Part shown: positions 1,865-64,000 of the stretch, piece by piece
How positions within the stretch are numbered: the stretch's first letter is position 1
Layout: each line of letters starts with the position of its first letter
Origin: a phage
Direction: 5' to 3' (one strand)
NCBI GenBank assembly: GCA_020241865.1
Contig: GCA_020241865.1_4709.1
DNA length: 64,000 nt
Notes under the pieces: model-generated
What the model was told of the DNA's origin: nothing
Seen by the model: the letters and a program-made list of their open reading frames with translations, nothing else
The model's database searches: none
Made by a program: the position numbers and the translations under genes

Positions 1865-4774
1865 ATGAACGATATAAATAAAGGGCGCGTCGCCCTCGAA
1901 CGTCAAATGAGCAATAATGACGTTGCGAAGGCACTCATGAACAAATTTGTCGCTCCTGCTCCGCAGTCACGTCTTTATAATACACGTGATGCGGAAGGAG
2001 CGAACGGTCGTTTCGGGTTAGTTGTTCCCGACCAAATGACGATGAACACGGTTACGCGTGCGACCGCGACAAACATCGAGGATAATAAAAACATCCTCGA
2101 GCTGTTCCCTGAACTTAAACGCGTGATGCAGATCTATGTTGCCGCGTTGACGAACCCTAACGATCTTAAGACGGTCGAGATGTTTATCGACAGCGAAGAT
2201 TTCCCCGGCAGAGTCGCAGAAATCGTTCAGCCGATGATCGATACCATCGACACGCATTTTAAGAATATCTATAAAATAAAGACGCTTATCCCTCGTATCA
2301 TCGAAGACGTCTTCTTTATCAAGGGCAGTTATAACTTCGTTGTTCTGCCGGAAAGCACGCTCGACCGCGCCATTAATGGTAACGGTCAACTGAAACTTGA
2401 AGAATACGGATTTAAAGACAACCATTTTGCAAGTTGGGGGCTTCTAGGTAACGACAGTCGCAAACGCCACGAAAATCAATTACCTGCGACGGTTTCGATG
2501 GAAGATTATTTCTCGGGTGTTAATGAAACCATACCGTACGATCCTGTTGTTCGCATAGACAGCATCAAGTTTACCAATACCCTGCTTCGCGATAAGGACG
2601 GTAAATTCATTGAAGCGAAGATCGATATTCCGGATATGGTTACGGTTGTCGATAACCCAGACATCCTCCGCATGCCTATTCTGCATCAACGTCGAGCAGC
2701 GACAGCAGTGCAGCGTGCGTTACGCGCAAACACGTTAGGAGGTAGTGGTTTGGTAACGCTGTCAGGCGATCCGACCCTAACCGCTAACCGACGTGAGCTG
2801 TCGCAAGAACAGGTTAACGAGATCTGGAATAAGCTCAACATCCAGCGCCACACCAAGGTATCGCCCGTTTACGCGCTGGCAACCCCAGATACGCTTGATC
2901 GTCAAAGCGTTGGCCATCCTGGCGTGATGCATGTACCACCTGAGGCATTAGAACCCGTACATGCGCCCGGTGATCCTGAGAACCATATCGGGTATTTGGT
3001 TCAGTTGGATGAGTTTGGTTATCCAGTACGTTTGGTTGAAGATGCGGCGTATTACAAGCAGTTGGAAGGTCGGTTGTCGAAGATCACCGCAGATATCGCA
3101 GGTACGTCAAGCAACGGCATGGCGAGCGAGATGATTGGTGCAGCCAAGAACATGATCCAAGGTACGTCATGTAATCAGGTAGACATGTCGGCCTTCGTAT
3201 CATCGTACGAATCGCTGATGCAACGTTACATTGTCGAACGTATCGTTAACGGTTATCTTGGCAGTGCGGTGGAGATCGGTGCGACATCATCGTTTTATCT
3301 GTCGATGCTTGCTCGTAGCCTCGCTCACAAGCAGACCCGTGTTTTGTTTATTCCTCGAGAGATGGTGACTTACATCGCCTATGAATACAACAAATACGGT
3401 ATCGGTCGTTCGCTGCTTGAAAGTACGAAGATGATCTCATCGCAACGAGCCATGCTCATGGTTCAAGAACTGATGGCGAAAATCAAAAGTTCGTTGAACT
3501 ATACGACGCTAAGCGTAATGCTTGAAGACACCGACAGAAACCCGGTCGATACCGTCGAACAAGCACTGCATAGTTTCGCTCGTGTCTACCAGTCTGGTTT
3601 CCCGTTGGGTGAAACTAACCCGATGGATATCATCAACGCGTACGAACGAAGCTCGATTCGATTGAAGGTTGAGGGGAATAACCCACGCTTCCCGAAATTG
3701 AATACAGACGTCAGTGTTGAGCAGCGTAACTATCAGTCTCCTGATAATGAGCTGATGGATCGTTACCGTCGTGACCATTTCATGGGCTTGGGTGTGTCTC
3801 CGGAGATTATCGATACTTCCTACCAATCTGAATTCGCAGCTTCTGTGATTACAGCTAACGCGATGCAAGAGAAACAGTTCACGGTTTGTCGTGAGGTGAT
3901 CACGAATGGGTTATCGGACCACATCAAGAAATATACGGCATACAGTCCCGTGTTGTTGACGTCGTTACGAAACACGGTTCGTGCGAACATGTCTAAGCTT
4001 TCCCAGGCACAATTGAAGCAGCTTTTTGGTAGCGATTTCGAAAACGGTGTTATCCGTAACGTTAACGCCTATCAGGAGATTGACGACCAATCAGCAACAA
4101 TGGATCTGGATTACACTAAACCAGAAGTCCAGGAAGTTATTGCCGATGCTTATGTGTCCATGTTCTTAAACAGTCTGCGTGTGCGTTTACCGGATAGCAA
4201 TGCTCGTCGCCTTGAAGATCAGGTACGTGAATATAATCAGTACAAGGAAGCGATTACTGCGCAACTTGATGATTATTTAACGCCTGATTACGTCATGGGT
4301 CTGGGTGGGGTTGATGAAACAACGCTGCAGATGATCCGCGCATGCATTATTGGTACCGCGATGCGTACATGGGCAAAAGAGAATAACTTCAATCAGGAGC
4401 TGGCTGATCTCTTCAGTCTTGACGATAAGAAGAATGCCGTGCAAGATTGGAAACGTATGTCCATGGAACATATTGAAGTCATGGGTAAATGCATGGGTGA
4501 TTTTGCATTGTATATTCAGAATCTGACGAAGAAGATTGAAGAGAAGATGGGAGCTCAAGCACAGGACGGTAGCGTTTCATCTGATGGTTCGTGGTCATCC
4601 GATTCAAGTAGCGATACCGGTTCTTCTGATGACTTCGGTGGCGGTGACGATTTCGGAGATACCGATTTCGATACCGAAACGATGGAGGAAACCTCAACAG
4701 AAGAAACAACCACATCTGAGGAAACGACGACCGACACAACGTCAGAAGACGACACTTCAGGTGGCGTTGTCTAA
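1865..4774 (+). CDS. large hypothetical protein (969 aa) with acidic S/T/D/E-rich C-terminal tail; virion-protein candidate
   Basis: ORF track; ATG 1865 with AAGGAG about 9 nt upstream; only short antisense ORFs inside; C-terminal about 70 aa low complexity. Confidence 0.85.
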   Translation: MNDINKGRVALERQMSNNDVAKALMNKFVAPAPQSRLYNTRDAEGANGRFGLVVPDQMTMNTVTRATATNIEDNKNILELFPELKRVMQIYVAALTNPNDLKTVEMFIDSEDFPGRVAEIVQPMIDTIDTHFKNIYKIKTLIPRIIEDVFFIKGSYNFVVLPESTLDRAINGNGQLKLEEYGFKDNHFASWGLLGNDSRKRHENQLPATVSMEDYFSGVNETIPYDPVVRIDSIKFTNTLLRDKDGKFIEAKIDIPDMVTVVDNPDILRMPILHQRRAATAVQRALRANTLGGSGLVTLSGDPTLTANRRELSQEQVNEIWNKLNIQRHTKVSPVYALATPDTLDRQSVGHPGVMHVPPEALEPVHAPGDPENHIGYLVQLDEFGYPVRLVEDAAYYKQLEGRLSKITADIAGTSSNGMASEMIGAAKNMIQGTSCNQVDMSAFVSSYESLMQRYIVERIVNGYLGSAVEIGATSSFYLSMLARSLAHKQTRVLFIPREMVTYIAYEYNKYGIGRSLLESTKMISSQRAMLMVQELMAKIKSSLNYTTLSVMLEDTDRNPVDTVEQALHSFARVYQSGFPLGETNPMDIINAYERSSIRLKVEGNNPRFPKLNTDVSVEQRNYQSPDNELMDRYRRDHFMGLGVSPEIIDTSYQSEFAASVITANAMQEKQFTVCREVITNGLSDHIKKYTAYSPVLLTSLRNTVRANMSKLSQAQLKQLFGSDFENGVIRNVNAYQEIDDQSATMDLDYTKPEVQEVIADAYVSMFLNSLRVRLPDSNARRLEDQVREYNQYKEAITAQLDDYLTPDYVMGLGGVDETTLQMIRACIIGTAMRTWAKENNFNQELADLFSLDDKKNAVQDWKRMSMEHIEVMGKCMGDFALYIQNLTKKIEEKMGAQAQDGSVSSDGSWSSDSSSDTGSSDDFGGGDDFGDTDFDTETMEETSTEETTTSEETTTDTTSEDDTSGGVV

Positions 4775-4807
4775 ACGGATGTAAAAAAAAAAATAACACA
4801 TAGTTAA

Positions 4808-16042: not shown

Positions 16043-16063
16043 ACGCAAAAAAAAAAAGATTGT

Positions 16064-54678: not shown

Positions 54679-55143
54679 TTACTCCTTAGTTCCTTCTTCG
54701 TTGGACGTATATTCCACATAGTGGAATTCACGGCCGTCGATAAACTTGAGTGCTACTGTAATAGGGAAATCACACGGCATAGCGGATTTCGTAAATGCGT
54801 TATCAGCAACATCAGATAACCGACGTATGGTATTCTCCCCTTTTGCTATGAATGGGAATTTAATGTTAATAAGGATACGGTGTTTGTAAATAGTAAAGAC
54901 GACAGTGCTGTCGAAATGTACCCCAGTTAAAGTCATTGTTGGGATACGTTTTACAACGGAGAAATGTGTCCCGTCAATATCGCTACTTCCCACTGACCAT
55001 TCATCGGAATTGCGTAGACTTTTCTTGAGGATATCAACGCTTTGCGTGACCACCTCAGCAACTTGTACGACGTACGTGTCTTTATGCATGTCGAAAAGTT
55101 CGTTGACGTTAGATTTGAATGAATAAACCGTTGCCATTATCAT
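54679..55143 (-). CDS. small hypothetical protein (154 aa), small-gene island
   Basis: ORF track; ATG 55143 overlaps upstream stop (ATGA); alternative ATG 55137 has better SD spacing. Confidence 0.75.
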   Translation of the reverse strand: MIMATVYSFKSNVNELFDMHKDTYVVQVAEVVTQSVDILKKSLRNSDEWSVGSSDIDGTHFSVVKRIPTMTLTGVHFDSTVVFTIYKHRILINIKFPFIAKGENTIRRLSDVADNAFTKSAMPCDFPITVALKFIDGREFHYVEYTSNEEGTKE

Positions 55144-55598
55144 ACCTCTTTTTTCATCTTCATCGGAACAGCGAGTGCTGCACTCGCTGTTCCATTATCC
55201 GGCTCATATTCCAATGTAACGAGATTGCAGCCGTCCGATAATTCATAATCGATCGCTAGGGGGAACGAGATACCGTGCGACTTTATGCATTTACCAAATG
55301 TCTCGTTGGCTGTATACATTAGAAGTTGCTTTGCGGCAAGCCCGTTTACGCTGAAAGGTAATTGTGCTGTCGCAGCGATACGATTATTGTAAACTCTGAT
55401 ATCGGTGATATCTACAATCGTAGCATTGCCGTGTTGTGTTGATGGAACGGATAGGTTGTAGAAGTAAGGTTCGGAGTCGGAATCGGGCTCGTTAAATAAT
55501 TCCCAGCACCCGTCCTCCTGCAATCTTACTTCGAGTATTTCAAAGCTTTTAATTATCGATTCTACCAGCTGCTCACCGTAAGAATCCCATGTCGTCAT
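55140..55598 (-). CDS. small hypothetical protein (152 aa), small-gene island
   Basis: ORF track; ATG 55598. Confidence 0.75.
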   Translation of the reverse strand: MTTWDSYGEQLVESIIKSFEILEVRLQEDGCWELFNEPDSDSEPYFYNLSVPSTQHGNATIVDITDIRVYNNRIAATAQLPFSVNGLAAKQLLMYTANETFGKCIKSHGISFPLAIDYELSDGCNLVTLEYEPDNGTASAALAVPMKMKKEV

Positions 55599-55669
55599 TT
55601 TTTAACACCTTCGACACCTTTTAACCGATACGTGTCCCATCTAACAAGGGACACGATATCGTTGATTAA

Positions 55670-56164
55670 TTACTCTTCTGTGTTTTCATTGTCAGGATCG
55701 TAGTGGAATTCGAACAGCCCTGAACCGTCGTGTCCGTTGATTGTTAGTATAACGGGCATATCGAATCCTCGGACACGCGAATGAAAACATTGTGCTAATT
55801 TTAGTTTGGCGTATGCCGCTACTTCATTGACAGCAATACACGATTCACCTGTTATACTCAGTATAACGTCGATACTAACAATGTTGTCGTGCAACGCAAA
55901 ACGCCAGCGATCGATACGATTATTATCTTTATCGGTTGTCTCGTTTACGAGATAGACTTTATCGTCAACCGACAAAGCGGGACTCCAGCAACGATCGTTT
56001 ATTAAATTCGCCTGGAGTTTTAGTATCGTCTGATCGATAATATCCCAACACGTAACCAGCGTGGTGTCAGGCACTGAGTAGAGAAGGGCGTGCACTTTAT
56101 CCTTTATTTTAAGTGCTTCCGCAGGACGTCCGCAAATACCATGCATTTCGACTTTCTTATTCAT
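55670..56164 (-). CDS. small hypothetical protein (about 164 aa), small-gene island
   Basis: Track start 56170 is GTG; ATG at 56164. Confidence 0.7.
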   Translation of the reverse strand: MNKKVEMHGICGRPAEALKIKDKVHALLYSVPDTTLVTCWDIIDQTILKLQANLINDRCWSPALSVDDKVYLVNETTDKDNNRIDRWRFALHDNIVSIDVILSITGESCIAVNEVAAYAKLKLAQCFHSRVRGFDMPVILTINGHDGSGLFEFHYDPDNENTEE

Positions 56165-56208
56165 ATTCACTTCTTTCTTAATCTAAATGTTAGTTGGGGG
56201 TGGGATGC

Positions 56209-56811
56209 TTACATGCTTTCTAGCATATTGACGATCATGGAACCCATACCGAAACTCGGTCTCTCACCGATATACTCAGCAAGCTGGCGATGGACGTCTT
56301 TTGGATTTCCTTCTTCACCGTCAGCATCGATGTAGACTGAAAAAGAAACCGAATCGGAATCCACGCTGATAACCAGACGACGTTCATTGCGTTCCTTGAG
56401 CGTGTCGACGATAGATGCTTTCAGTACCGGGATCGCATTCATCGCGTGCAAGATATCTCCATCGGGTTTCGGCAGATCGATCTTTTCTTTCAGGTCGATA
56501 TTGATGTTGGTTACAATTGGGTTGAGGTCGACCTTGACGTAATCGTTAGGGTACATGCGAATAATCGCACGATCGATATCTGAACCGTAAAAGTCAACAC
56601 GTGGCTTTAACACTTCTTTGTTTGGATCCATGTTTTCATCCATACCCGCCTGCAAGAAACGTTCTACGTTATCCAGTTCACGATAAACTAACGCTTCGAT
56701 TTCTTTCAGATAGTTGGCTGCGGTTTCATGTTCTTTACGCAGCTCGTCTTTAAGGAGCTGTACGGTGGTTTCACTGGAACGAATGCTGTTCGCGAATTGG
56801 GTAATTGACAT
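56209..56811 (-). CDS. hypothetical protein (about 200 aa), small-gene island
   Basis: Track start 56841 is TTG; ATG 56811 has AAGGA 8 nt upstream. Confidence 0.75.
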   Translation of the reverse strand: MSITQFANSIRSSETTVQLLKDELRKEHETAANYLKEIEALVYRELDNVERFLQAGMDENMDPNKEVLKPRVDFYGSDIDRAIIRMYPNDYVKVDLNPIVTNINIDLKEKIDLPKPDGDILHAMNAIPVLKASIVDTLKERNERRLVISVDSDSVSFSVYIDADGEEGNPKDVHRQLAEYIGERPSFGMGSMIVNMLESM

Positions 56812-56858
56812 ATCGAATTCCTTAAATTCTCTTGAGTTCAATTAATGATGAAAAGCTG

Positions 56859-56887
56859 TAAAAAAAAAAGGTGGGGCGAACCCCACC
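56859..56887 (-). terminator. intrinsic terminator: stem GGTGGGG-CGAA-CCCCACC followed by T10 on minus strand
   Basis: Perfect 7-bp stem with 4-nt loop and A10 tract on plus strand (U-tract on minus transcript), 26 nt after stop of gene 56913-57338. Confidence 0.75.
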
Positions 56888-56912
56888 AAAACGTCAGACA
56901 CACGCGGGAAAA

Positions 56913-57338
56913 TTAATTCAGTGATGCATATAAGGCATAACGACTGTAGATCTCAACCGCCGGTCCGTTATGCGTTAACAGACCGTCTCGGCTGTAATAC
57001 TGGAAAAATGAATAACGTTTGTCGAAGTGATAAACAAAAGCAATGTCTTTGCCGTCAAAACCTGTGATGCGTGGTCTGTTTTTATCTAGCAATGCTTTGA
57101 CTTTTAACAGTGTTGCCGCACGTGCTTTAACGTTAGGGATCAAGCCATCACAATCGATATAAACAGTGTAACCTGTTTCAGATGTTGCGACGGTCGTATT
57201 GCGATTGACGCGGAAGATTTTTGTTTCGTATGTACTATCTTCAAGAATTGGGTTTTGTTTTTCGTATTTTCGTTTACGCAGAAATTCTACAACGGTGATA
57301 TAGTTAGCGGTAATATGCCCGGTTATAGCTTGTAACAT
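56913..57338 (-). CDS. small hypothetical protein (141 aa) downstream of promoter-like motif copy 2
   Basis: ORF track; ATG 57338 with AAAGGA upstream. Confidence 0.8.
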   Translation of the reverse strand: MLQAITGHITANYITVVEFLRKRKYEKQNPILEDSTYETKIFRVNRNTTVATSETGYTVYIDCDGLIPNVKARAATLLKVKALLDKNRPRITGFDGKDIAFVYHFDKRYSFFQYYSRDGLLTHNGPAVEIYSRYALYASLN

Positions 57339-57404
57339 CTTGACATCCTTTTATATTGGATTGGTTGCAATTGTCTTAAATAGATGATAAGATATTTTGC
57401 TCTT

Positions 57405-57437
57405 ATCACTAAGGTAATGTAGTCGCGAAATAAACTG
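57405..57437 (-). promoter_or_regulatory. conserved promoter-like motif copy 2 (minus strand CAGTTTATTTCGCGACTACATTACCTTAGTGAT)
   Basis: Near-identical to 19381-19416; adjacent inverted repeat TGATAAGA-N8-TCTTATCA at 57385-57408; about 67 nt upstream of ATG 57338. Confidence 0.5.
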
Positions 57438-57467
57438 CGTTAACACGAAATAAAAAACAGCATAGAA

Positions 57468-57507
57468 CCCTCCTCCCACATCCTTCAAGAGGACGGTGGG
57501 AAGAGGG
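57468..57507 (-). terminator. GC-rich stem-loop CCCTCCTCCC...GGGAAGAGGG (family member, enlarged loop)
   Basis: Inverted repeat with one mismatch, 6 nt after stop of gene 57513-57914. Confidence 0.55.
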
Positions 57508-57512
57508 AGAGA

Positions 57513-57914
57513 TTAAATGTCGTGGACGGCAATGCCGTTTAACCAGCAATACAGCTTAACGCGACAGGAATACCGCTTCGTTGCGGCAACCATTTCATCG
57601 CGTAAACGCTGGTATATTTCATCCTGGTGTTCACGATCAATGGGGTAATCAGCCCAACATTCGATCATGACGTCACCATTCGTCAGAATCGTCGTACGCA
57701 TCCTGTCCTGGATACGGCGGTCTTTCCCGGCATTAGGGAAATACATTCCTTCAGTACGAATAAGGTCGCCGCAAGGCATGACTAACCATTCGTTCGTTTT
57801 GCCGGTATTCTTATAATCCATTACAGCTTGCATTGCGGTGTCAACGCTAAAAGAAACATAATTCCAAACGGATGTCCAACGATAGATTGCGGGTTGTTCG
57901 AGTGTTTCGTTCAT
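57513..57914 (-). CDS. small hypothetical protein (133 aa)
   Basis: ORF track; ATG 57914 with AGGAAAAG upstream. Confidence 0.8.
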   Translation of the reverse strand: MNETLEQPAIYRWTSVWNYVSFSVDTAMQAVMDYKNTGKTNEWLVMPCGDLIRTEGMYFPNAGKDRRIQDRMRTTILTNGDVMIECWADYPIDREHQDEIYQRLRDEMVAATKRYSCRVKLYCWLNGIAVHDI

Positions 57915-58128: not shown

Positions 58129-58755
58129 TTATGCGAAGCGACGCATGTAACCTGCCAGATAGTTACGTGTATCGAAGTAAGCAATTTCAGGAATTGCGAT
58201 ATTAAGGTCGATAGCACGGATTTCAACCTGGCGACGGCTTTCATCATAGATCGCATCCATCAGACGCAGTACTGTCAGGAAAGCCATGCGGGTATGGTAG
58301 TCCAGCGGCATGTTATCGATGCCACGATACAGATAACGGTTTGCATTAAATGCTCCTTCGCTGTTATCTTTCCAGATCTTCAGAATATCAGCAAAGGCGG
58401 TGCGGAAAACCTCAGGATTATCCACATCCAGTAACGCACGGAAGGCAGACATTAAAGACCGCTGATGGCGGATCAACGACTGCGGTGTTTGCGGCATGGT
58501 CGGACCCATTTCTTCCGCATATTTCTGGAACGGGGCAACCAGGGTTGCGGCACGAGAAGCCACGATAGAAACAGCAGGCGATTCTTTCACCGCTGGTTTC
58601 GCAGGCTTTTCTTCAACAACGGTTTCCTTCTTCTCAACAGCGACCGTTTCCGGCTGTGCTACAACATCACCAACCGGAGCATCTGCAACGGTGGTTTCTA
58701 CCGCAGTAATCTCCTCGTCCATTTTTGCAGAACGTTGGTCTTTATTCTTGCTCAT
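58129..58755 (-). CDS. highly expressed small protein (208 aa) with charged, proline/valine-rich N-terminal segment
   Basis: ORF track; ATG 58755 with AAAGGA upstream; host-like codon choice and two stop-free antisense frames. Confidence 0.85.
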   Translation of the reverse strand: MSKNKDQRSAKMDEEITAVETTVADAPVGDVVAQPETVAVEKKETVVEEKPAKPAVKESPAVSIVASRAATLVAPFQKYAEEMGPTMPQTPQSLIRHQRSLMSAFRALLDVDNPEVFRTAFADILKIWKDNSEGAFNANRYLYRGIDNMPLDYHTRMAFLTVLRLMDAIYDESRRQVEIRAIDLNIAIPEIAYFDTRNYLAGYMRRFA

Positions 58756-60968: not shown

Positions 60969-61064
60969 ATCCACTCCGATGCGGTAAATGTCTACTAGCT
61001 CTCATAATCTATTGAAGAAACTACCAGCTTACGCCAACTTAGATTAATCAGGAGTAACCATCCC

Positions 61065-61538
61065 ATGCCAGTTTCATCCAAACCAAGAAAAAAATCTGTA
61101 GGAAACCCTAAAGCTCAGGAAACAACAGCAATTCGTTGGGACGAGTTACGTGAACCTATCGAAAACTGCGAATTGTTATTAGGTACCCTGGGTGCAGCTA
61201 TTTACCAAGCGACGCAACCCTGTCGTTTACGATTAACCCAAAACAAACGTGATGAGTTCGTTGCGTTATCAACAAGCACGAATAAAGATCTGACCGAACT
61301 TCAAACCGAGTTGACGACGATCAAGAACTCCATCACGCCGATGTACGGTAAAGAAGTTGATGAACAAAGTATTCTGTTACAGTACAACTACGGGATGTCG
61401 TTAATGAACATCCTGGAACGCGCATCCGATATTCTGCGTCCTGACGTTGCACGCCTAAGCCAGCTGCGTGTCGAAGGGATGGAGAACCAGATCCGATTCG
61501 CTAACAGTGTTAAATCTCAAGGAGCCACCGAAGCATGA
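61065..61538 (+). CDS. hypothetical protein (157 aa), first gene of plus-strand operon
   Basis: ORF track; ATG 61065 with AGGAG upstream; stop overlaps next start (ATGA). Confidence 0.8.
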   Translation: MPVSSKPRKKSVGNPKAQETTAIRWDELREPIENCELLLGTLGAAIYQATQPCRLRLTQNKRDEFVALSTSTNKDLTELQTELTTIKNSITPMYGKEVDEQSILLQYNYGMSLMNILERASDILRPDVARLSQLRVEGMENQIRFANSVKSQGATEA

Positions 61539-63199
61539 GCGAACAAGAAAAAGAAGTCGTGACGAATCAGGAAGCCGTTGAGCGTTCAGAGTCGTCCGTT
61601 GAAACAACGATTCCGGCAAGTTCCGAGCCTGTTGGTTCCACACAGCAGGAAAGTAAAGACGAAGTAGTGGCTCCAGAAGCAACCCGTGAAGAAGAACCAT
61701 CACATCCACCGCTGGTCGATTTCTCGAAGGCAACGATACGTTTCCAATGCGAAGACATTCGTCCTAAGAGTCCGAAGAAAACAAAACGTCAGCCGTTGGT
61801 GTTACCGCTGTATTCTCCACGTGTGCAGACAACGTATTACCGGGAATACATCAACGAAGCAATGGATACCGTGCAAGCCATTGTCGCTCAACGCGGTAAA
61901 CCGACAGACGAACAATTTGATAAATTCAGTAAAGCGGTGGTGCAATCGGTTGCTGATGGACAATATCATCCGCGTGGCCCAGCTCACGATCGCGCCTTGG
62001 AACGTAAGGGCAGTCAGTGGACTAACGTACCCGTAGACTCATCGGGTGTTGGTCGCGTTATTCCTGGCATTCCACAACCGAACCGTATCCCTGATGATGT
62101 CGAAGCGCCGCTGACAGGAACCGATGCGATCTATTTTGCCATCCGTAATACGAAATCAGGTGCGCCTGCGGTAATGCCGTTATGGCATAGCGGTATTAAG
62201 CTGCAGTTTAATCCGCCGTCAAATGAACGTGTTGCAATTATGCACGAACGTATTGCACGCGATAAAATCCTGGGTGGACGTGATAGTACCGGTTTCCTGT
62301 TTTCAGCAACCTCGATTATCACCATGAAGCACGCTATCGAATTAGCATTAGAATGCTGCTACATGGCCAACGTACCGAACCTGGATATCCAGCGTTTGAA
62401 AGACATTATTCCGGTTACCGATGTTCCAGCGTTATTGCTGAACGTGCTGGTAACCATGTACCCGTACGGATATCCTTACGTACAGACCTGCTATCAGAAT
62501 CCAGAAACCTGCGACTATCGTGTTGAAGATACCGTAAGCTTTGCGAAACTCTATCAAGTTGACAACAGCGCGATAACCAAACGTATGCGACAGATCATGA
62601 CCGAAGGTCCGGTCATGACGGATGAACTTTTGCGTGAGTATGCAAACGAACTGGGTGAAACAAACTCCCGTACGCTGGATCTGTCCGACAACGGTTCTGT
62701 TATCATTGAACTTGAAGTACCGAAGATTTCACGTCAGATCGCCATGGGCGAACGCTGGTTAAGCGATACCCTGGAAGATCTGCGTGATATTCTATCGCGT
62801 CCGTCAATGACCGAAGAAGAGCGTGATCGTGTTATTCGTGAACGTCAGTTCTATAGCTGGATGCGTCAGTATGATGCGTGGATCAAATCGATGCACGTGT
62901 CAGTAAACGGTACCATGCGTCGTGTAAGCGATGCAGATACGGCAACGGTATTAGCACAGCTGTCACGAGACAGCGACCTTCGTGAACGTTATATTGACGG
63001 GTTGATGCAATTCATCGGTGATTCGACGATTGCGCTCGCAGCGATGCCTGCCTGGAAATGTCCGAAATGTAATGCCGATATTGCTGACAATCTGCGTGAC
63101 CAGAAATACTACGATCTGATTGCTTTGGATGTACCCCAGCTTTTTTTTACCCTAAACTCCGTCCAATCTCTTCAGGAGGGGATGGACGCGGTATTCTAA
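61535..63199 (+). CDS. hypothetical protein (554 aa) with C-terminal CPKC zinc-ribbon-like motif
   Basis: ORF track; ATG 61535 with AAGGAG about 10 nt upstream. Confidence 0.85.
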   Translation: MSEQEKEVVTNQEAVERSESSVETTIPASSEPVGSTQQESKDEVVAPEATREEEPSHPPLVDFSKATIRFQCEDIRPKSPKKTKRQPLVLPLYSPRVQTTYYREYINEAMDTVQAIVAQRGKPTDEQFDKFSKAVVQSVADGQYHPRGPAHDRALERKGSQWTNVPVDSSGVGRVIPGIPQPNRIPDDVEAPLTGTDAIYFAIRNTKSGAPAVMPLWHSGIKLQFNPPSNERVAIMHERIARDKILGGRDSTGFLFSATSIITMKHAIELALECCYMANVPNLDIQRLKDIIPVTDVPALLLNVLVTMYPYGYPYVQTCYQNPETCDYRVEDTVSFAKLYQVDNSAITKRMRQIMTEGPVMTDELLREYANELGETNSRTLDLSDNGSVIIELEVPKISRQIAMGERWLSDTLEDLRDILSRPSMTEEERDRVIRERQFYSWMRQYDAWIKSMHVSVNGTMRRVSDADTATVLAQLSRDSDLRERYIDGLMQFIGDSTIALAAMPAWKCPKCNADIADNLRDQKYYDLIALDVPQLFFTLNSVQSLQEGMDAVF

Positions 63200-63261
63200 T
63201 CGATCCGCGATACGGGTTACATGACGGACAACTTGTTCGTAATGATGAAAAAATCTGGGAA

Positions 63262-63621
63262 TTGCTGTTAGCGCGTAAAGGCGATGGTGGCATGAAGCTG
63301 AACATCGAAATGGGTATTGCGTACGATACCATGTTTGGCTTGTACGATCGTGTTAACGACTGGACGCCGTTGAAATGGGTGGCTCAGCACCCCGCTGAAG
63401 ATCCCTGGGACAGATTGGGGATTAAACCCTTAATCGAAGATTATGTCCGATTCGGTATTAAAGAGTTCATGACGTTGGATGCGTTTTTACAAGCACCGTA
63501 TCCTTACGCGCAAATGGTACTCAAAATCGCACAAGACGAACTGCGGAAACGTAGTGCGGTACTGGACGACGATGAGGACAAGTTACGACGAGAAGAAGAA
63601 CGTTTACGAAACGGAAAATAA
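63262..63621 (+). CDS. hypothetical protein (119 aa; start uncertain, alternative ATG 63292)
   Basis: ORF track start is TTG; stop 1 nt before next ATG. Confidence 0.55.
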   Translation: MLLARKGDGGMKLNIEMGIAYDTMFGLYDRVNDWTPLKWVAQHPAEDPWDRLGIKPLIEDYVRFGIKEFMTLDAFLQAPYPYAQMVLKIAQDELRKRSAVLDDDEDKLRREEERLRNGK

Positions 63622-63622
63622 A

Positions 63623-64000
63623 ATGGCGAGATTTACCAGTTTGATTGGGTTGGATATTTGGGAAACACCGGCTGACGTTCGGGTTATTCCTGTTAACACC
63701 GTCGGTGTGATGGGACGTGGTCTTGCCAAACAGGCAGCCGATCGTGTACCCGGTCTTCTTGAAGCGTACCGTAAGCAATGTCAAGATGGGTTTAAGGTGG
63801 GCGAAGTCGTGTCGTATCAACACGGTGATAACGATCAACTCACCTACGTGTTGTTTCCATCAAAATCGGATTGGCGTGAAAGAACACGACGCGAGTATAT
63901 CGTTAACGGTTTACTGGCGTTAAAAGCATGGTTACTGGAGCTTCAGTTCGAAAGAGACGGCTTCTCATATCGGCGTCCGGCTGAACCGCTGATCGTTGCA
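63623..64000 (+). CDS. macrodomain protein candidate (TARG1/DarG-like ADP-ribose-binding or -removing fold), partial, runs off window end
   Basis: Stop-free frame from ATG 63623 to window end (not in ORF track); translated start MARFTSLIGLDIWETPADVRVIPVNTVGVMGRGLAKQAADRVPGL has the N-x-V-G-x-M-G-x-G-[IL]-A signature I associate with TARG1/DarG-type macrodomains. Confidence 0.6.
   Translation, partial: MARFTSLIGLDIWETPADVRVIPVNTVGVMGRGLAKQAADRVPGLLEAYRKQCQDGFKVGEVVSYQHGDNDQLTYVLFPSKSDWRERTRREYIVNGLLALKAWLLELQFERDGFSYRRPAEPLIVA

What the first reader, a model, noticed from the sequence alone, without database searches (positions are those of the whole stretch)
63623..64000. TARG1/DarG-like macrodomain at the end of a tightly coupled plus-strand operon: candidate anti-ADP-ribosylation counter-defence
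The ORF from 63623 has no stop inside the window, so it is absent from the ORF track. It begins MARFTSLIGLDIWETPADVRVIPVNTVGVMGRGLAKQAADRVPGLLEAYRK. The segment N-T-V-G-V-M-G-R-G-L-A matches the glycine-rich ADP-ribose-binding loop of TARG1/DarG-type macrodomains (pattern M-G-x-G-I-A), not the GGGG loop of MacroD-type. Macrodomains of this type remove ADP-ribose from proteins and nucleic acids, and DarG neutralises the DNA-ADP-ribosylating toxin DarT of the DarTG anti-phage system. A phage copy is therefore a plausible eraser of host ADP-ribosylation defences, or a regulator of a phage ADP-ribosyltransferase. It is the last of four coupled plus-strand genes (61065, 61535, 63262, 63623; stop/start overlaps or 1-nt gaps) transcribed away from the minus-strand block.
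Basis: partly seen in the sequence, partly recalled or inferred. Interest (0 to 1): 0.75.

Follow-up and report, generated by a model that had tools for sequence, protein, structure and literature searches.

The report
Known phage anti-DarT macrodomain (AdfM)

Summary
In detail: an ORF starts at 63623 and runs off the window, with exactly the quoted translation. The window comes from a close relative of E. coli jumbo phage Goslar (96.9% nt identity). The ORF is the 96%-identical ortholog of Goslar gp83 (169 aa; the window holds 126). It matches DarG models (E about 1e-22, macrodomain part only). A structure model of a 98%-identical full-length homolog is closest to the DarG macrodomains 5M3E and 5M3I, then TARG1. 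It keeps the catalytic Asn25 and Lys81.

This family was published in April 2026 as AdfM (PMC13309987). PhiKZ gp104 removes DarT2 ADP-ribose from DNA, neutralises DarT2 and protects phiKZ and PhiPA3 from DarTG2. Goslar gp83 appears in that paper's alignment but was not tested. The 554-aa neighbour shows no ADP-ribosyltransferase fold.

By-product: the 554-aa gene (phiKZ gp77 family) carries a T8 run (63141-63148). The -1 frame is open from there through the "119-aa ORF" to 63621. The same T5-T9 run and homologous -1 extension occur in nearly all of about 50 chimallivirus loci. This suggests a conserved -1 recoding event that I found neither annotated nor published.

The parts
63623..64000 (+). 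adfM (anti-DarT factor macro), first 126 of about 169 codons; cut off by the window end
   Evidence: ortholog of Goslar gp83, which is named as AdfM in PMC13309987
63695..63727 (+). ADP-ribose-binding loop N25-TVGVMGRGL-A35. Asn25 (63695-63697) corresponds to T. aquaticus DarG N22 and PhiKZ AdfM N23
   Evidence: Alignments. The N23A mutation reduces PhiKZ AdfM activity
63863..63865 (+). Codon for Lys81 in the FPSK motif. It corresponds to the catalytic Lys of DarG (K80), TARG1 (K84) and PhiKZ AdfM (K78)
   Evidence: Invariant column; aligned to FPTK in 5M31 and 5M3I; active-site residues as named in the paper's Figure 1C legend
63148..63621 (+). Reading frame -1 relative to the 554-aa gene, open from the T-run to a TAA stop (157 codons). 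It contains the '119-aa ORF' listed from TTG 63262 (Goslar gp082, phrog_12109). Its stop lies 1 nt before the adfM ATG
63141..63148 (+). T8 run read as CTT TTT TTT ACC. It forms the slippery heptamer T_TTT_TTT in phase with the 554-aa frame and is the proposed -1 recoding site
   Evidence: The 24 nt around it are identical in a relative whose proteins are only about 53-55% identical
61535..63199 (+). 554-aa protein of the phiKZ gp77 family (Goslar gp081, phrog_4585). Function unknown; has C-terminal CxxC motifs; no ADP-ribosyltransferase fold detected
61065..61538 (+). 157-aa protein in the position of phiKZ gp78 (Goslar gp080). It overlaps the next gene by 4 nt (ATGA)
   Evidence: conserved synteny
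60975..61064 (.). Divergent intergenic region between the minus-strand block and the plus-strand block. The minus-strand block holds homologs of phiKZ gp79 and the virion RNA polymerase beta subunit

Best explanation
The ORF encodes the N-terminal 126 residues of AdfM, the single-domain DarG2-like macrodomain of nucleus-forming jumbo phages (Chimalliviridae).

Shown for orthologs: the host toxin DarT2 ADP-ribosylates thymine in TNTC motifs of single-stranded phage DNA. AdfM hydrolyses that ADP-ribose and is imported into the phage nucleus. There it keeps the replicating genome free of the modification, so replication and packaging can proceed.

Inferred for this phage: the protein does the same against E. 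coli DarTG2 systems, using Asn25 and Lys81 in the ADP-ribose pocket. Unlike bacterial DarG, it has no DarT-binding domain, so it acts only as an eraser and not by sequestering the toxin.
For: - **Source.** The window is 96.9% identical in DNA to phage Goslar, and the ORF is 96% identical in protein to gp83.
- **Profile matches.** The full-length Goslar ortholog passes the Pfam Macro threshold (24.5 vs 22 bits). It matches DarG models over the macrodomain only (model positions 7-146 of 338).
- **Solved structures.** The top PDB sequence hits are DarG macrodomains (5M31 at 7e-15, 5M3I at 1e-12).
- **Structure model.** An AF2 model of a 98%-identical 169-aa homolog has pLDDT 84.5. Foldseek ranks 5M3E, 5M31, 5M3I and 7OMU first (E 1e-12 to 2e-9), then TARG1.
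- **Relation to the tested protein.** Pairwise BLASTP to PhiKZ gp104 gives 37% identity, E 7e-22, aligned from residue 1.
- **Catalytic residues.** Asn25 is nearly invariant and Lys81 invariant in an alignment that includes TARG1.
- **Published experiments (PMC13309987).**
  - PhiKZ AdfM removes DarT2-made ADP-ribose from an oligonucleotide, and N23A weakens this.
  - It fully rescues DarT2 toxicity in E. coli.
  - AdfM-deleted phiKZ and PhiPA3 lose 3-6 logs of titre on DarTG2 hosts.
  - Phage DNA is more ADP-ribosylated without AdfM.
  - GFP fusions localise to the phage nucleus.
  - Goslar gp83 is in their Figure 1B alignment.
- **Host.** E. coli carries DarTG systems (EPEC; abstract of PMC7003065).
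Against: - Neither Goslar gp83 nor this phage's protein has been assayed; it is only 32-37% identical to the tested PhiKZ enzyme.
- The window lacks the last 43 or so residues. These include the second phosphate-binding loop, so completeness rests on the Goslar ortholog.
- In the Goslar lineage that loop reads VGSGCGNIG and is followed by an insertion absent from DarG and PhiKZ AdfM. It is the lowest-confidence part of the model (pLDDT below 50 at residues 134-139), so substrate range could differ.
- Nuclear import in Goslar-like phages is untested.
Confidence: 0.87

Rival explanations
1. It is a general housekeeping macrodomain of the Poa1p or YmdB kind. It would hydrolyse ADP-ribose-1''-phosphate or O-acetyl-ADP-ribose, or remove ADP-ribose from proteins, and would not be a DNA de-ADP-ribosylase.
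For: RefSeq labels Goslar gp83 as Macro_Poa1p_like. Homologs in other phage records are called 'phosphatase' or 'Appr-1-p processing'. Poa1p structures appear in the fold search at E about 1e-6.
Against: DarG macrodomains score about six orders of magnitude better than Poa1p in the fold search, and they are the only strong sequence matches. The 37%-identical PhiKZ ortholog acts on DarT2-modified DNA and is required specifically on DarTG2 hosts.
Confidence: 0.05
2. It is an antidote or regulator for an ADP-ribosyltransferase encoded by the phage itself, for example the 554-aa upstream protein.
For: Only co-directional linkage supports this. An AdfM homolog follows the gp77-family gene in about half of the surveyed loci.
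Confidence: 0.02
3. It erases a different nucleic-acid ADP-ribosylation made by E. coli defences, such as an RNA or guanine modification or another DarT-like toxin, rather than or in addition to DarT2 thymine marks.
For: The Goslar lineage has a divergent second loop with an insertion. Identity to the tested PhiKZ enzyme is only about 35%. Reversible RNA ADP-ribosylation systems exist (titles and abstracts).
Against: The paper's introduction says guanine (DarT1) marks are reversed by NADAR domains, and that DarG2-type macrodomains act on thymine-linked ADP-ribose. The catalytic Asn and Lys and the overall fold match DarG2.
Confidence: 0.06

Closest known systems
AdfM (anti-DarT factor macro): PhiKZ gp104, PhiPA3 gp108, Asesino gp217, Goslar gp83 (Morgan et al., Cell Rep 2026, PMC13309987)
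   Same: It is the same family. The ORF is 96% identical to Goslar gp83 and 37% identical to PhiKZ gp104, aligned from residue 1. It is single-domain, about 160-170 aa, keeps the catalytic Asn and Lys, and is encoded by a chimallivirus.
   Different: This lineage's protein is untested. Its second loop (VGSGCGNIG plus an insertion) differs from PhiKZ (LGCANGGLD). The gene sits directly after the gp78-gp77 block rather than near gp103-gp105 as in phiKZ.
DarG2 antitoxin macrodomain (T. aquaticus 5M3E/5M31, M. tuberculosis 5M3I; NCBIfam NF048014)
   Same: It is the closest fold and sequence match. It shares the NTVGVMGxG loop, the FP[ST]K catalytic lysine and, by inference, the chemistry of thymine-linked ADP-ribose hydrolysis.
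   Different: It has no C-terminal DarT-binding domain (81 bits against the 250-bit equivalog cut-off) and no adjacent darT. It is phage-encoded and, in orthologs, imported into the phage nucleus.
Human TARG1 (C6orf130; 4J5S)
   Same: It belongs to the same macrodomain subclass, with the M-G-x-G-[IVL]-A loop and an aligned catalytic Lys (K84 to K81). It is the second-best structural group.
   Different: Identity is only 17-21%. TARG1 Asp125 is not conserved (Gly in the Goslar ortholog). The biological context is different.
AdfB, the NADAR-domain anti-DarT1 factor of T4-like phages (as described in PMC13309987)
   Same: It follows the same strategy: a phage-encoded eraser of DarT-made DNA ADP-ribosylation.
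   Different: The fold is unrelated (NADAR), and it is specific for guanine marks made by DarT1.
Programmed -1 frameshifts of the dnaX and phage tail-chaperone G/GT type (for the upstream gene pair; from general knowledge and PMC5009743)
   Same: A slippery homopolymeric heptamer lies near the end of an ORF. It would yield a short product and a C-terminally extended product from one mRNA.
   Different: The run here is U-rich (T_TTT_TTT/C/A) and lies in a non-structural gene of unknown function. No conserved downstream stem-loop was found, and the mechanism (ribosomal or transcriptional slippage) is undetermined.

Membership tests
AdfM (chimallivirus anti-DarT factor macro) | Sequence homology to the experimentally characterised PhiKZ gp104 | tested here: met
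   BLASTP gives 37% identity over 107 aa, E 7e-22, aligned from residue 1. The ORF is 96% identical to Goslar gp83, which the authors list as AdfM.
AdfM (chimallivirus anti-DarT factor macro) | Macrodomain fold closest to DarG2 | tested here: met
   The AF2 model has pLDDT 84.5. The top Foldseek hits are 5M3E, 5M31, 5M3I and 7OMU. DarG HMMs give E about 1e-22. The model is of a 98%-identical full-length homolog, because the window copy is truncated.
AdfM (chimallivirus anti-DarT factor macro) | Active-site Asn and Lys (PhiKZ N23/K78; T. aquaticus DarG N22/K80) | tested here: met
   Asn25 and Lys81 align with them; Lys81 is invariant and Asn25 nearly invariant. Both codons lie inside the window.
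AdfM (chimallivirus anti-DarT factor macro) | Encoded by a nucleus-forming (chimallin-encoding) jumbo phage | tested here: met
   The window is 96.9% identical to Goslar. The neighbours are orthologs of phiKZ gp77-gp80, including a virion RNA polymerase subunit.
AdfM (chimallivirus anti-DarT factor macro) | Removes DarT2-made ADP-ribose from DNA, neutralises DarT2, protects the phage from DarTG2, and localises to the phage nucleus | not testable with these tools
   Shown only for PhiKZ, PhiPA3 and Asesino orthologs in PMC13309987.
DarG antitoxin of a DarTG toxin-antitoxin system (NF048014 equivalog) | C-terminal DarT-binding domain; full-length score above the equivalog cut-off | tested here: not met
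   The score is 81.3 bits against a cut-off of 250. Only model positions 7-146 of 338 match, and the ortholog ends at residue 169.
DarG antitoxin of a DarTG toxin-antitoxin system (NF048014 equivalog) | Adjacent darT toxin gene | tested here: not met
   The six neighbouring proteins scanned have no DarT or ART Pfam hit. The genes upstream are phiKZ gp76.4-, gp77- and gp78-type. In Goslar the gene downstream is a convergent hypothetical protein following a terminator.
TARG1-type macrodomain | Catalytic Lys-Asp dyad (K84/D125) | tested here: not met
   The Lys is conserved (K81), but the residue aligned with D125 is Gly in the Goslar ortholog and in the other phage and DarG-like sequences. That region lies beyond the window.
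Programmed -1 frameshift / slippage site (upstream gene pair) | Slippery heptamer X_XXY_YYZ in phase with the upstream frame | tested here: met
   The window has T_TTT_TTT. A perfect in-phase heptamer is present in 39 of 47 loci examined. The remaining 8 have G_TTT_TT[TC].
Programmed -1 frameshift / slippage site (upstream gene pair) | The -1 frame is open from the site and encodes a conserved peptide, including upstream of any possible start codon | tested here: met
   The -1 frame is open for 153-183 codons, against 10-22 in the zero frame. Conserved blocks lie before the first NTG, which is at codon 87 in phiKZ and 102-103 in L033, L034 and L036. phrog_12109 matches phiKZ 'intergenic' translation at E 9e-24.
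Programmed -1 frameshift / slippage site (upstream gene pair) | Downstream stimulatory RNA structure | tested here: inconclusive
   Mean z is -0.29 over 29 loci. The window's own hairpin gives z -1.23 with dinucleotide shuffles. Many known sites lack one, and transcriptional slippage needs none.
Programmed -1 frameshift / slippage site (upstream gene pair) | A trans-frame protein product is actually made | not testable with these tools
   This needs mass spectrometry, western blotting or a reporter assay.

The most novel reading that the evidence does not exclude
The '119-aa ORF' just upstream of adfM is not a free-standing gene. It is the C-terminal part of a trans-frame product of about 695 aa from the phiKZ-gp77-family gene. 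That product would be made by a -1 shift, either ribosomal or by RNA-polymerase slippage, at a T-run conserved throughout Chimalliviridae and so far neither annotated nor reported.

In about half of the lineages the adfM start codon overlaps or abuts the stop of this recoded frame. AdfM translation may therefore be partly coupled to the recoding event; this last step is speculative.
Probability: 0.5. Interest if true: 0.6.

Novelty: already known. Interest (0 to 1): 0.25.

Why it matters
For the finding as given, this window adds one more, untested, E. coli-phage ortholog of a counter-defence protein characterised in 2026. It is useful for annotation. The RefSeq start of Goslar gp83 is probably 17 codons too long, and 'phosphatase' or 'cysteine-type peptidase' labels on homologs are misleading. 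It does not change what is known.

The by-product could matter more. If the T-run is a real recoding site, a gene conserved across the nucleus-forming phage family makes two proteins from one message. Dozens of genome annotations would then split it wrongly or leave up to about 100 codons unannotated. It would also be an example of recoding in phages that transcribe with their own RNA polymerases inside a nucleus-like compartment.

Tried and rejected
- **RefSeq upstream start (window 63572).** Rejected. Relative L003 has in-frame stops before its ATG, and PhiKZ and PhiPA3 orthologs align from residue 1.
- **My early inference that the adfM/gp77 adjacency is peculiar to Goslar.** It was drawn from phiKZ alone and was wrong. 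A tblastn survey found AdfM directly downstream in about 24 of 49 loci.
- **Downstream frameshift-stimulating hairpin.** Not conserved. The window's hairpin is not significant with dinucleotide shuffles. My first z of -2.45 came from mononucleotide shuffles.
- **In-frame fusion of the two parts.** None found among 1.84 billion representative proteins; all 20 hits are 92-158 aa.
- **Pfam on the -1 extension.** No hit.
- **Independent initiation of the 119-aa ORF.** Judged unlikely. The first NTG varies from codon 10 to 103 after the run, one locus has no ATG, and conserved blocks precede it.
- **Homopolymer sequencing error as the cause of the split.** Rejected. The split is the same in about 50 independent assemblies with T5 to T9 runs. 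Only RTH11, with T7 where T8 would fit, looks like a possible miscall.
- **Literature searches for a reported frameshift.** Nothing found, but the library is incomplete.
- Two sandbox scripts failed because loci fetched in one turn are stored in a single file; I worked around this.

Full report
**1. Observation**

From ATG 63623 the plus-strand frame is open to the last base of the window. The ORF list confirms the layout around it:
- A minus-strand block ends at 60974.
- Plus-strand ORFs lie at 61065-61538, 61535-63199 and 63262-63621.
- The open frame from 63623 follows.

The third is not. There are 62 nt between the stop at 63199 and the TTG at 63262.

**2. Source and full-length gene**

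Megablast places the last 3 kb of the window on Escherichia phage vB_EcoM_Goslar at 96.9% identity. [quoted passage not shown] The ORF is 96% identical in protein to Goslar gp83, which RefSeq annotates as 'macro domain-containing protein'.

The missing tail carries the second glycine-rich loop (IPPVGSGCGNIGYG).

RefSeq starts gp83 51 nt upstream. I consider that an over-extension for two reasons:
- A relative whose AdfM is 55% identical (L003) has stop codons in frame directly before its ATG.
- The PhiKZ and PhiPA3 orthologs align from residue 1, MA-F.

**3. What kind of macrodomain**
- **Pfam.** The fragment alone is just under the Macro threshold (19.4 vs 22 bits). The full Goslar protein passes (24.5 bits).
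- **DarG models.** These are far more specific: NCBIfam NF048014 gives E 7.5e-23 and PADLOC DarG 3.4e-22. They cover only the macrodomain part (positions 7-146 of 338) and score 81 bits against an equivalog cut-off of 250. This is a DarG-like macrodomain without the DarT-binding domain.
- **PDB by sequence.** The best hits are the T. aquaticus and M. tuberculosis DarG macrodomains.
- **Fold.** An AlphaFold2 model of a 98%-identical 169-aa homolog has pLDDT 84.5 and pTM 0.81. Foldseek ranks 5M3E, 5M31, 5M3I and the DarTG fusion 7OMU first, then TARG1, and Poa1p and viral macrodomains well below.
- **Catalytic residues.** In a multiple alignment Lys81 (FPSK) is invariant, including against TARG1 K84, and Asn25 is nearly invariant. 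TARG1 Asp125 is not conserved.

**4. Already known**

A literature search found Morgan et al., Cell Reports 2026 (PMC13309987). They name this chimallivirus macrodomain AdfM and report the following:
- PhiKZ gp104 removes DarT2-made ADP-ribose from a TNTC oligonucleotide, and N23A weakens this.
- It fully rescues DarT2 toxicity in E. coli.
- It is needed by phiKZ and PhiPA3 on DarTG2 hosts, with 3-6 log titre losses without it.
- It lowers ADP-ribosylation of phage DNA.
- It localises to the phage nucleus.

Goslar gp83 (YP_009820768.1) is in their Figure 1B alignment but was not assayed. The window protein is 37% identical to PhiKZ gp104 (E 7e-22). Its Asn25 and Lys81 match PhiKZ N23 and K78.

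Two things remain inferred for this phage: the activity itself, and whether the divergent second loop of the Goslar lineage changes substrate range.

**5.

The 554-aa upstream protein is the ortholog of phiKZ gp077 and is conserved in 158 phage records. The tests for an ADP-ribosyltransferase were negative:
- It has no Pfam hit and no PDB sequence hit, even with a profile.
- No ART is annotated in the Goslar region matching the window.

The 'regulator of a phage ART' alternative therefore has no support.

The gene block itself is real and widespread. The order vRNAP beta, gp79-like | gp78-like, gp77-like, small ORF is shared by phiKZ, 201phi2-1 and Xanthomonas phage RTH11. An AdfM homolog follows it directly in about 24 of 49 loci surveyed, though not in the phiKZ, PhiPA3 or 201phi2-1 lineages. 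Where AdfM is present, its start is usually coupled to the preceding stop:
- an ATGA-type 4-nt overlap in 9 of 23 loci;
- -1 to +4 nt in 10 more;
- 13-25 nt with a Shine-Dalgarno-like sequence in 3.

**6. By-product: a probable conserved recoding site**

While checking the 62-nt gap I saw that the frame of the '119-aa ORF' is open back to 63100. I also saw that the 554-aa gene contains C-TTTTTTTT-A at 63140-63149, read as CTT TTT TTT ACC. That is the slippery heptamer T_TTT_TTT in phase.

*Conservation at the site.* A relative whose proteins here are only about 53-55% identical has the identical 24 nt CAGCTTTTTTTTACCCTAAACTCC. It also shows amino-acid conservation in the -1 frame across the 'intergenic' DNA.

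*phiKZ.* phiKZ has ACT TTT TTT ACT. Its -1 frame is open through the 218-nt gap into PHIKZ076.4. 201phi2-1 and RTH11 are similar.

*Survey.* I examined 44 IMG/VR loci plus isolates.
- Every complete locus has a T5-T9 run 25-61 nt before the zero-frame stop.
- After the run, the zero frame stays open for 10-22 codons and the -1 frame for 153-183.
- The single outlier is RTH11, where T7 stands where T8 would fit.
- An in-phase perfect heptamer is present in 39 of 47 loci. The rest have G_TTT_TT[TC].

*Evidence against independent initiation.*
- The first ATG, GTG or TTG in the -1 frame lies anywhere from codon 10 to 103 after the run, and one locus has no ATG.
- The 41 distinct -1 peptides nevertheless align as one family, with conserved blocks (FFYP, GHV..P.FGL, aY...yGi.dH, PL.lv..pkEd). 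The first two blocks precede the first possible start in several lineages.
- phrog_12109 matches the phiKZ -1 translation over residues 27-163 (E 9e-24). That includes about 60 residues of unannotated DNA.

*Chance and specificity.*
- I used each gene's own -1-frame stop density as background. The open stretch up to the first NTG then has a summed log10 probability of about -39 over 23 lineages. This treats the lineages as independent, so it is rough.
- In the whole 64-kb window only 7 T>=7 runs exist on either strand. Only this one joins a long upstream ORF to a long -1 frame.

*Negative or neutral results.*
- There is no conserved downstream hairpin.
- No in-frame fusion exists in 1.84 billion representative proteins.
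- None of seven published records annotates a joined CDS.
- No paper in the searchable library mentions it.

*Reading.* I read this as a -1 recoding event. The mechanism is undetermined: ribosomal frameshifting, or RNA-polymerase slippage adding one U. It would give a 554-aa product and a product of about 695 aa (538 + 157). The function of both is unknown. phiKZ gp077 is listed as an early-expressed hypothetical protein and is not mentioned in the 2026 phiKZ virion atlas.

**7. Verdict**

The finding is real and correctly interpreted, but already explained in the literature. Novelty is 'already known' and interest is low. The recoding site upstream is the item worth follow-up.

Noticed in passing
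window 63141-63148 (T8 run) with 61535-63199 and 63148-63621: The 554-aa gene (phiKZ gp77 family) and the following '119-aa ORF' look like one recoded gene. A slippery T_TTT_TTT heptamer sits 49 nt before the stop, and the -1 frame is open for 157 codons from it. The same T5-T9 run and a homologous -1 extension occur in essentially all of about 50 chimallivirus loci, including phiKZ, 201phi2-1, PhiPA3, Deimos-Minion, Eowyn and RSL2. Conserved residues lie upstream of any start codon. It is not annotated in 7 records checked, and I found no paper on it.
   Followed up: yes
window 63619-63625; loci L003-L044: The adfM start codon abuts or overlaps the stop of the -1-frame ORF: 1 nt apart here, an ATGA-type overlap in 9 of 23 loci, and -1 to +4 nt in 10 more. 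An AdfM homolog follows the gp77 block in about half of the surveyed chimallivirus loci, but not in phiKZ-like phages. AdfM translation could be coupled to the upstream, possibly recoded, frame; this is untested.
   Followed up: partly
window 63572-63622; Goslar NC_048170 92868-92918: RefSeq starts Goslar gp83 17 codons upstream of the conserved ATG, inside the preceding ORF. Comparative evidence favours the shorter 169-aa protein.
   Followed up: yes
L005 (Xanthomonas phage RTH11, OQ790161) about 3678-3684: RTH11 has T7 where T8 would keep the standard arrangement. As deposited, the zero frame runs on for 69 codons of Arg-rich sequence, and the long extension lies in the +1 frame. This is either a homopolymer miscall or a lineage with a different slip requirement.
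   Followed up: partly
window 58129-58755 (-): This 208-aa ORF (phrog_18957) is the ortholog of Goslar gp77, identified as an outer capsid decorator protein in a 2026 Goslar cryo-EM preprint (10.64898/2026.04.21.720040). Note the numbering clash with phiKZ gp77, which is a different protein.
   Followed up: partly
window 54679-57914 (-): There is a run of small minus-strand ORFs of 130-210 aa upstream of the capsid decorator gene. Two adjacent ones (54679-55143 and 55140-55598) looked similar in size and composition and may be paralogs. I did not examine them.
   Followed up: no
window 4783-4793, 16047-16057, 56860-56869 (minus strand): Long T10-T11 runs, read on the minus strand, lie in short open stretches. 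They are probably intergenic, perhaps terminator tails or promoter-proximal tracts. I only listed them as controls.
   Followed up: no
phage records (e.g. PQ015378 RVTF4, NC_023610 PhiEaH1): AdfM homologs carry inconsistent product names in public records: 'cysteine-type peptidase', 'phosphatase', 'Appr-1-P processing domain', and most often 'hypothetical protein'.
   Followed up: no
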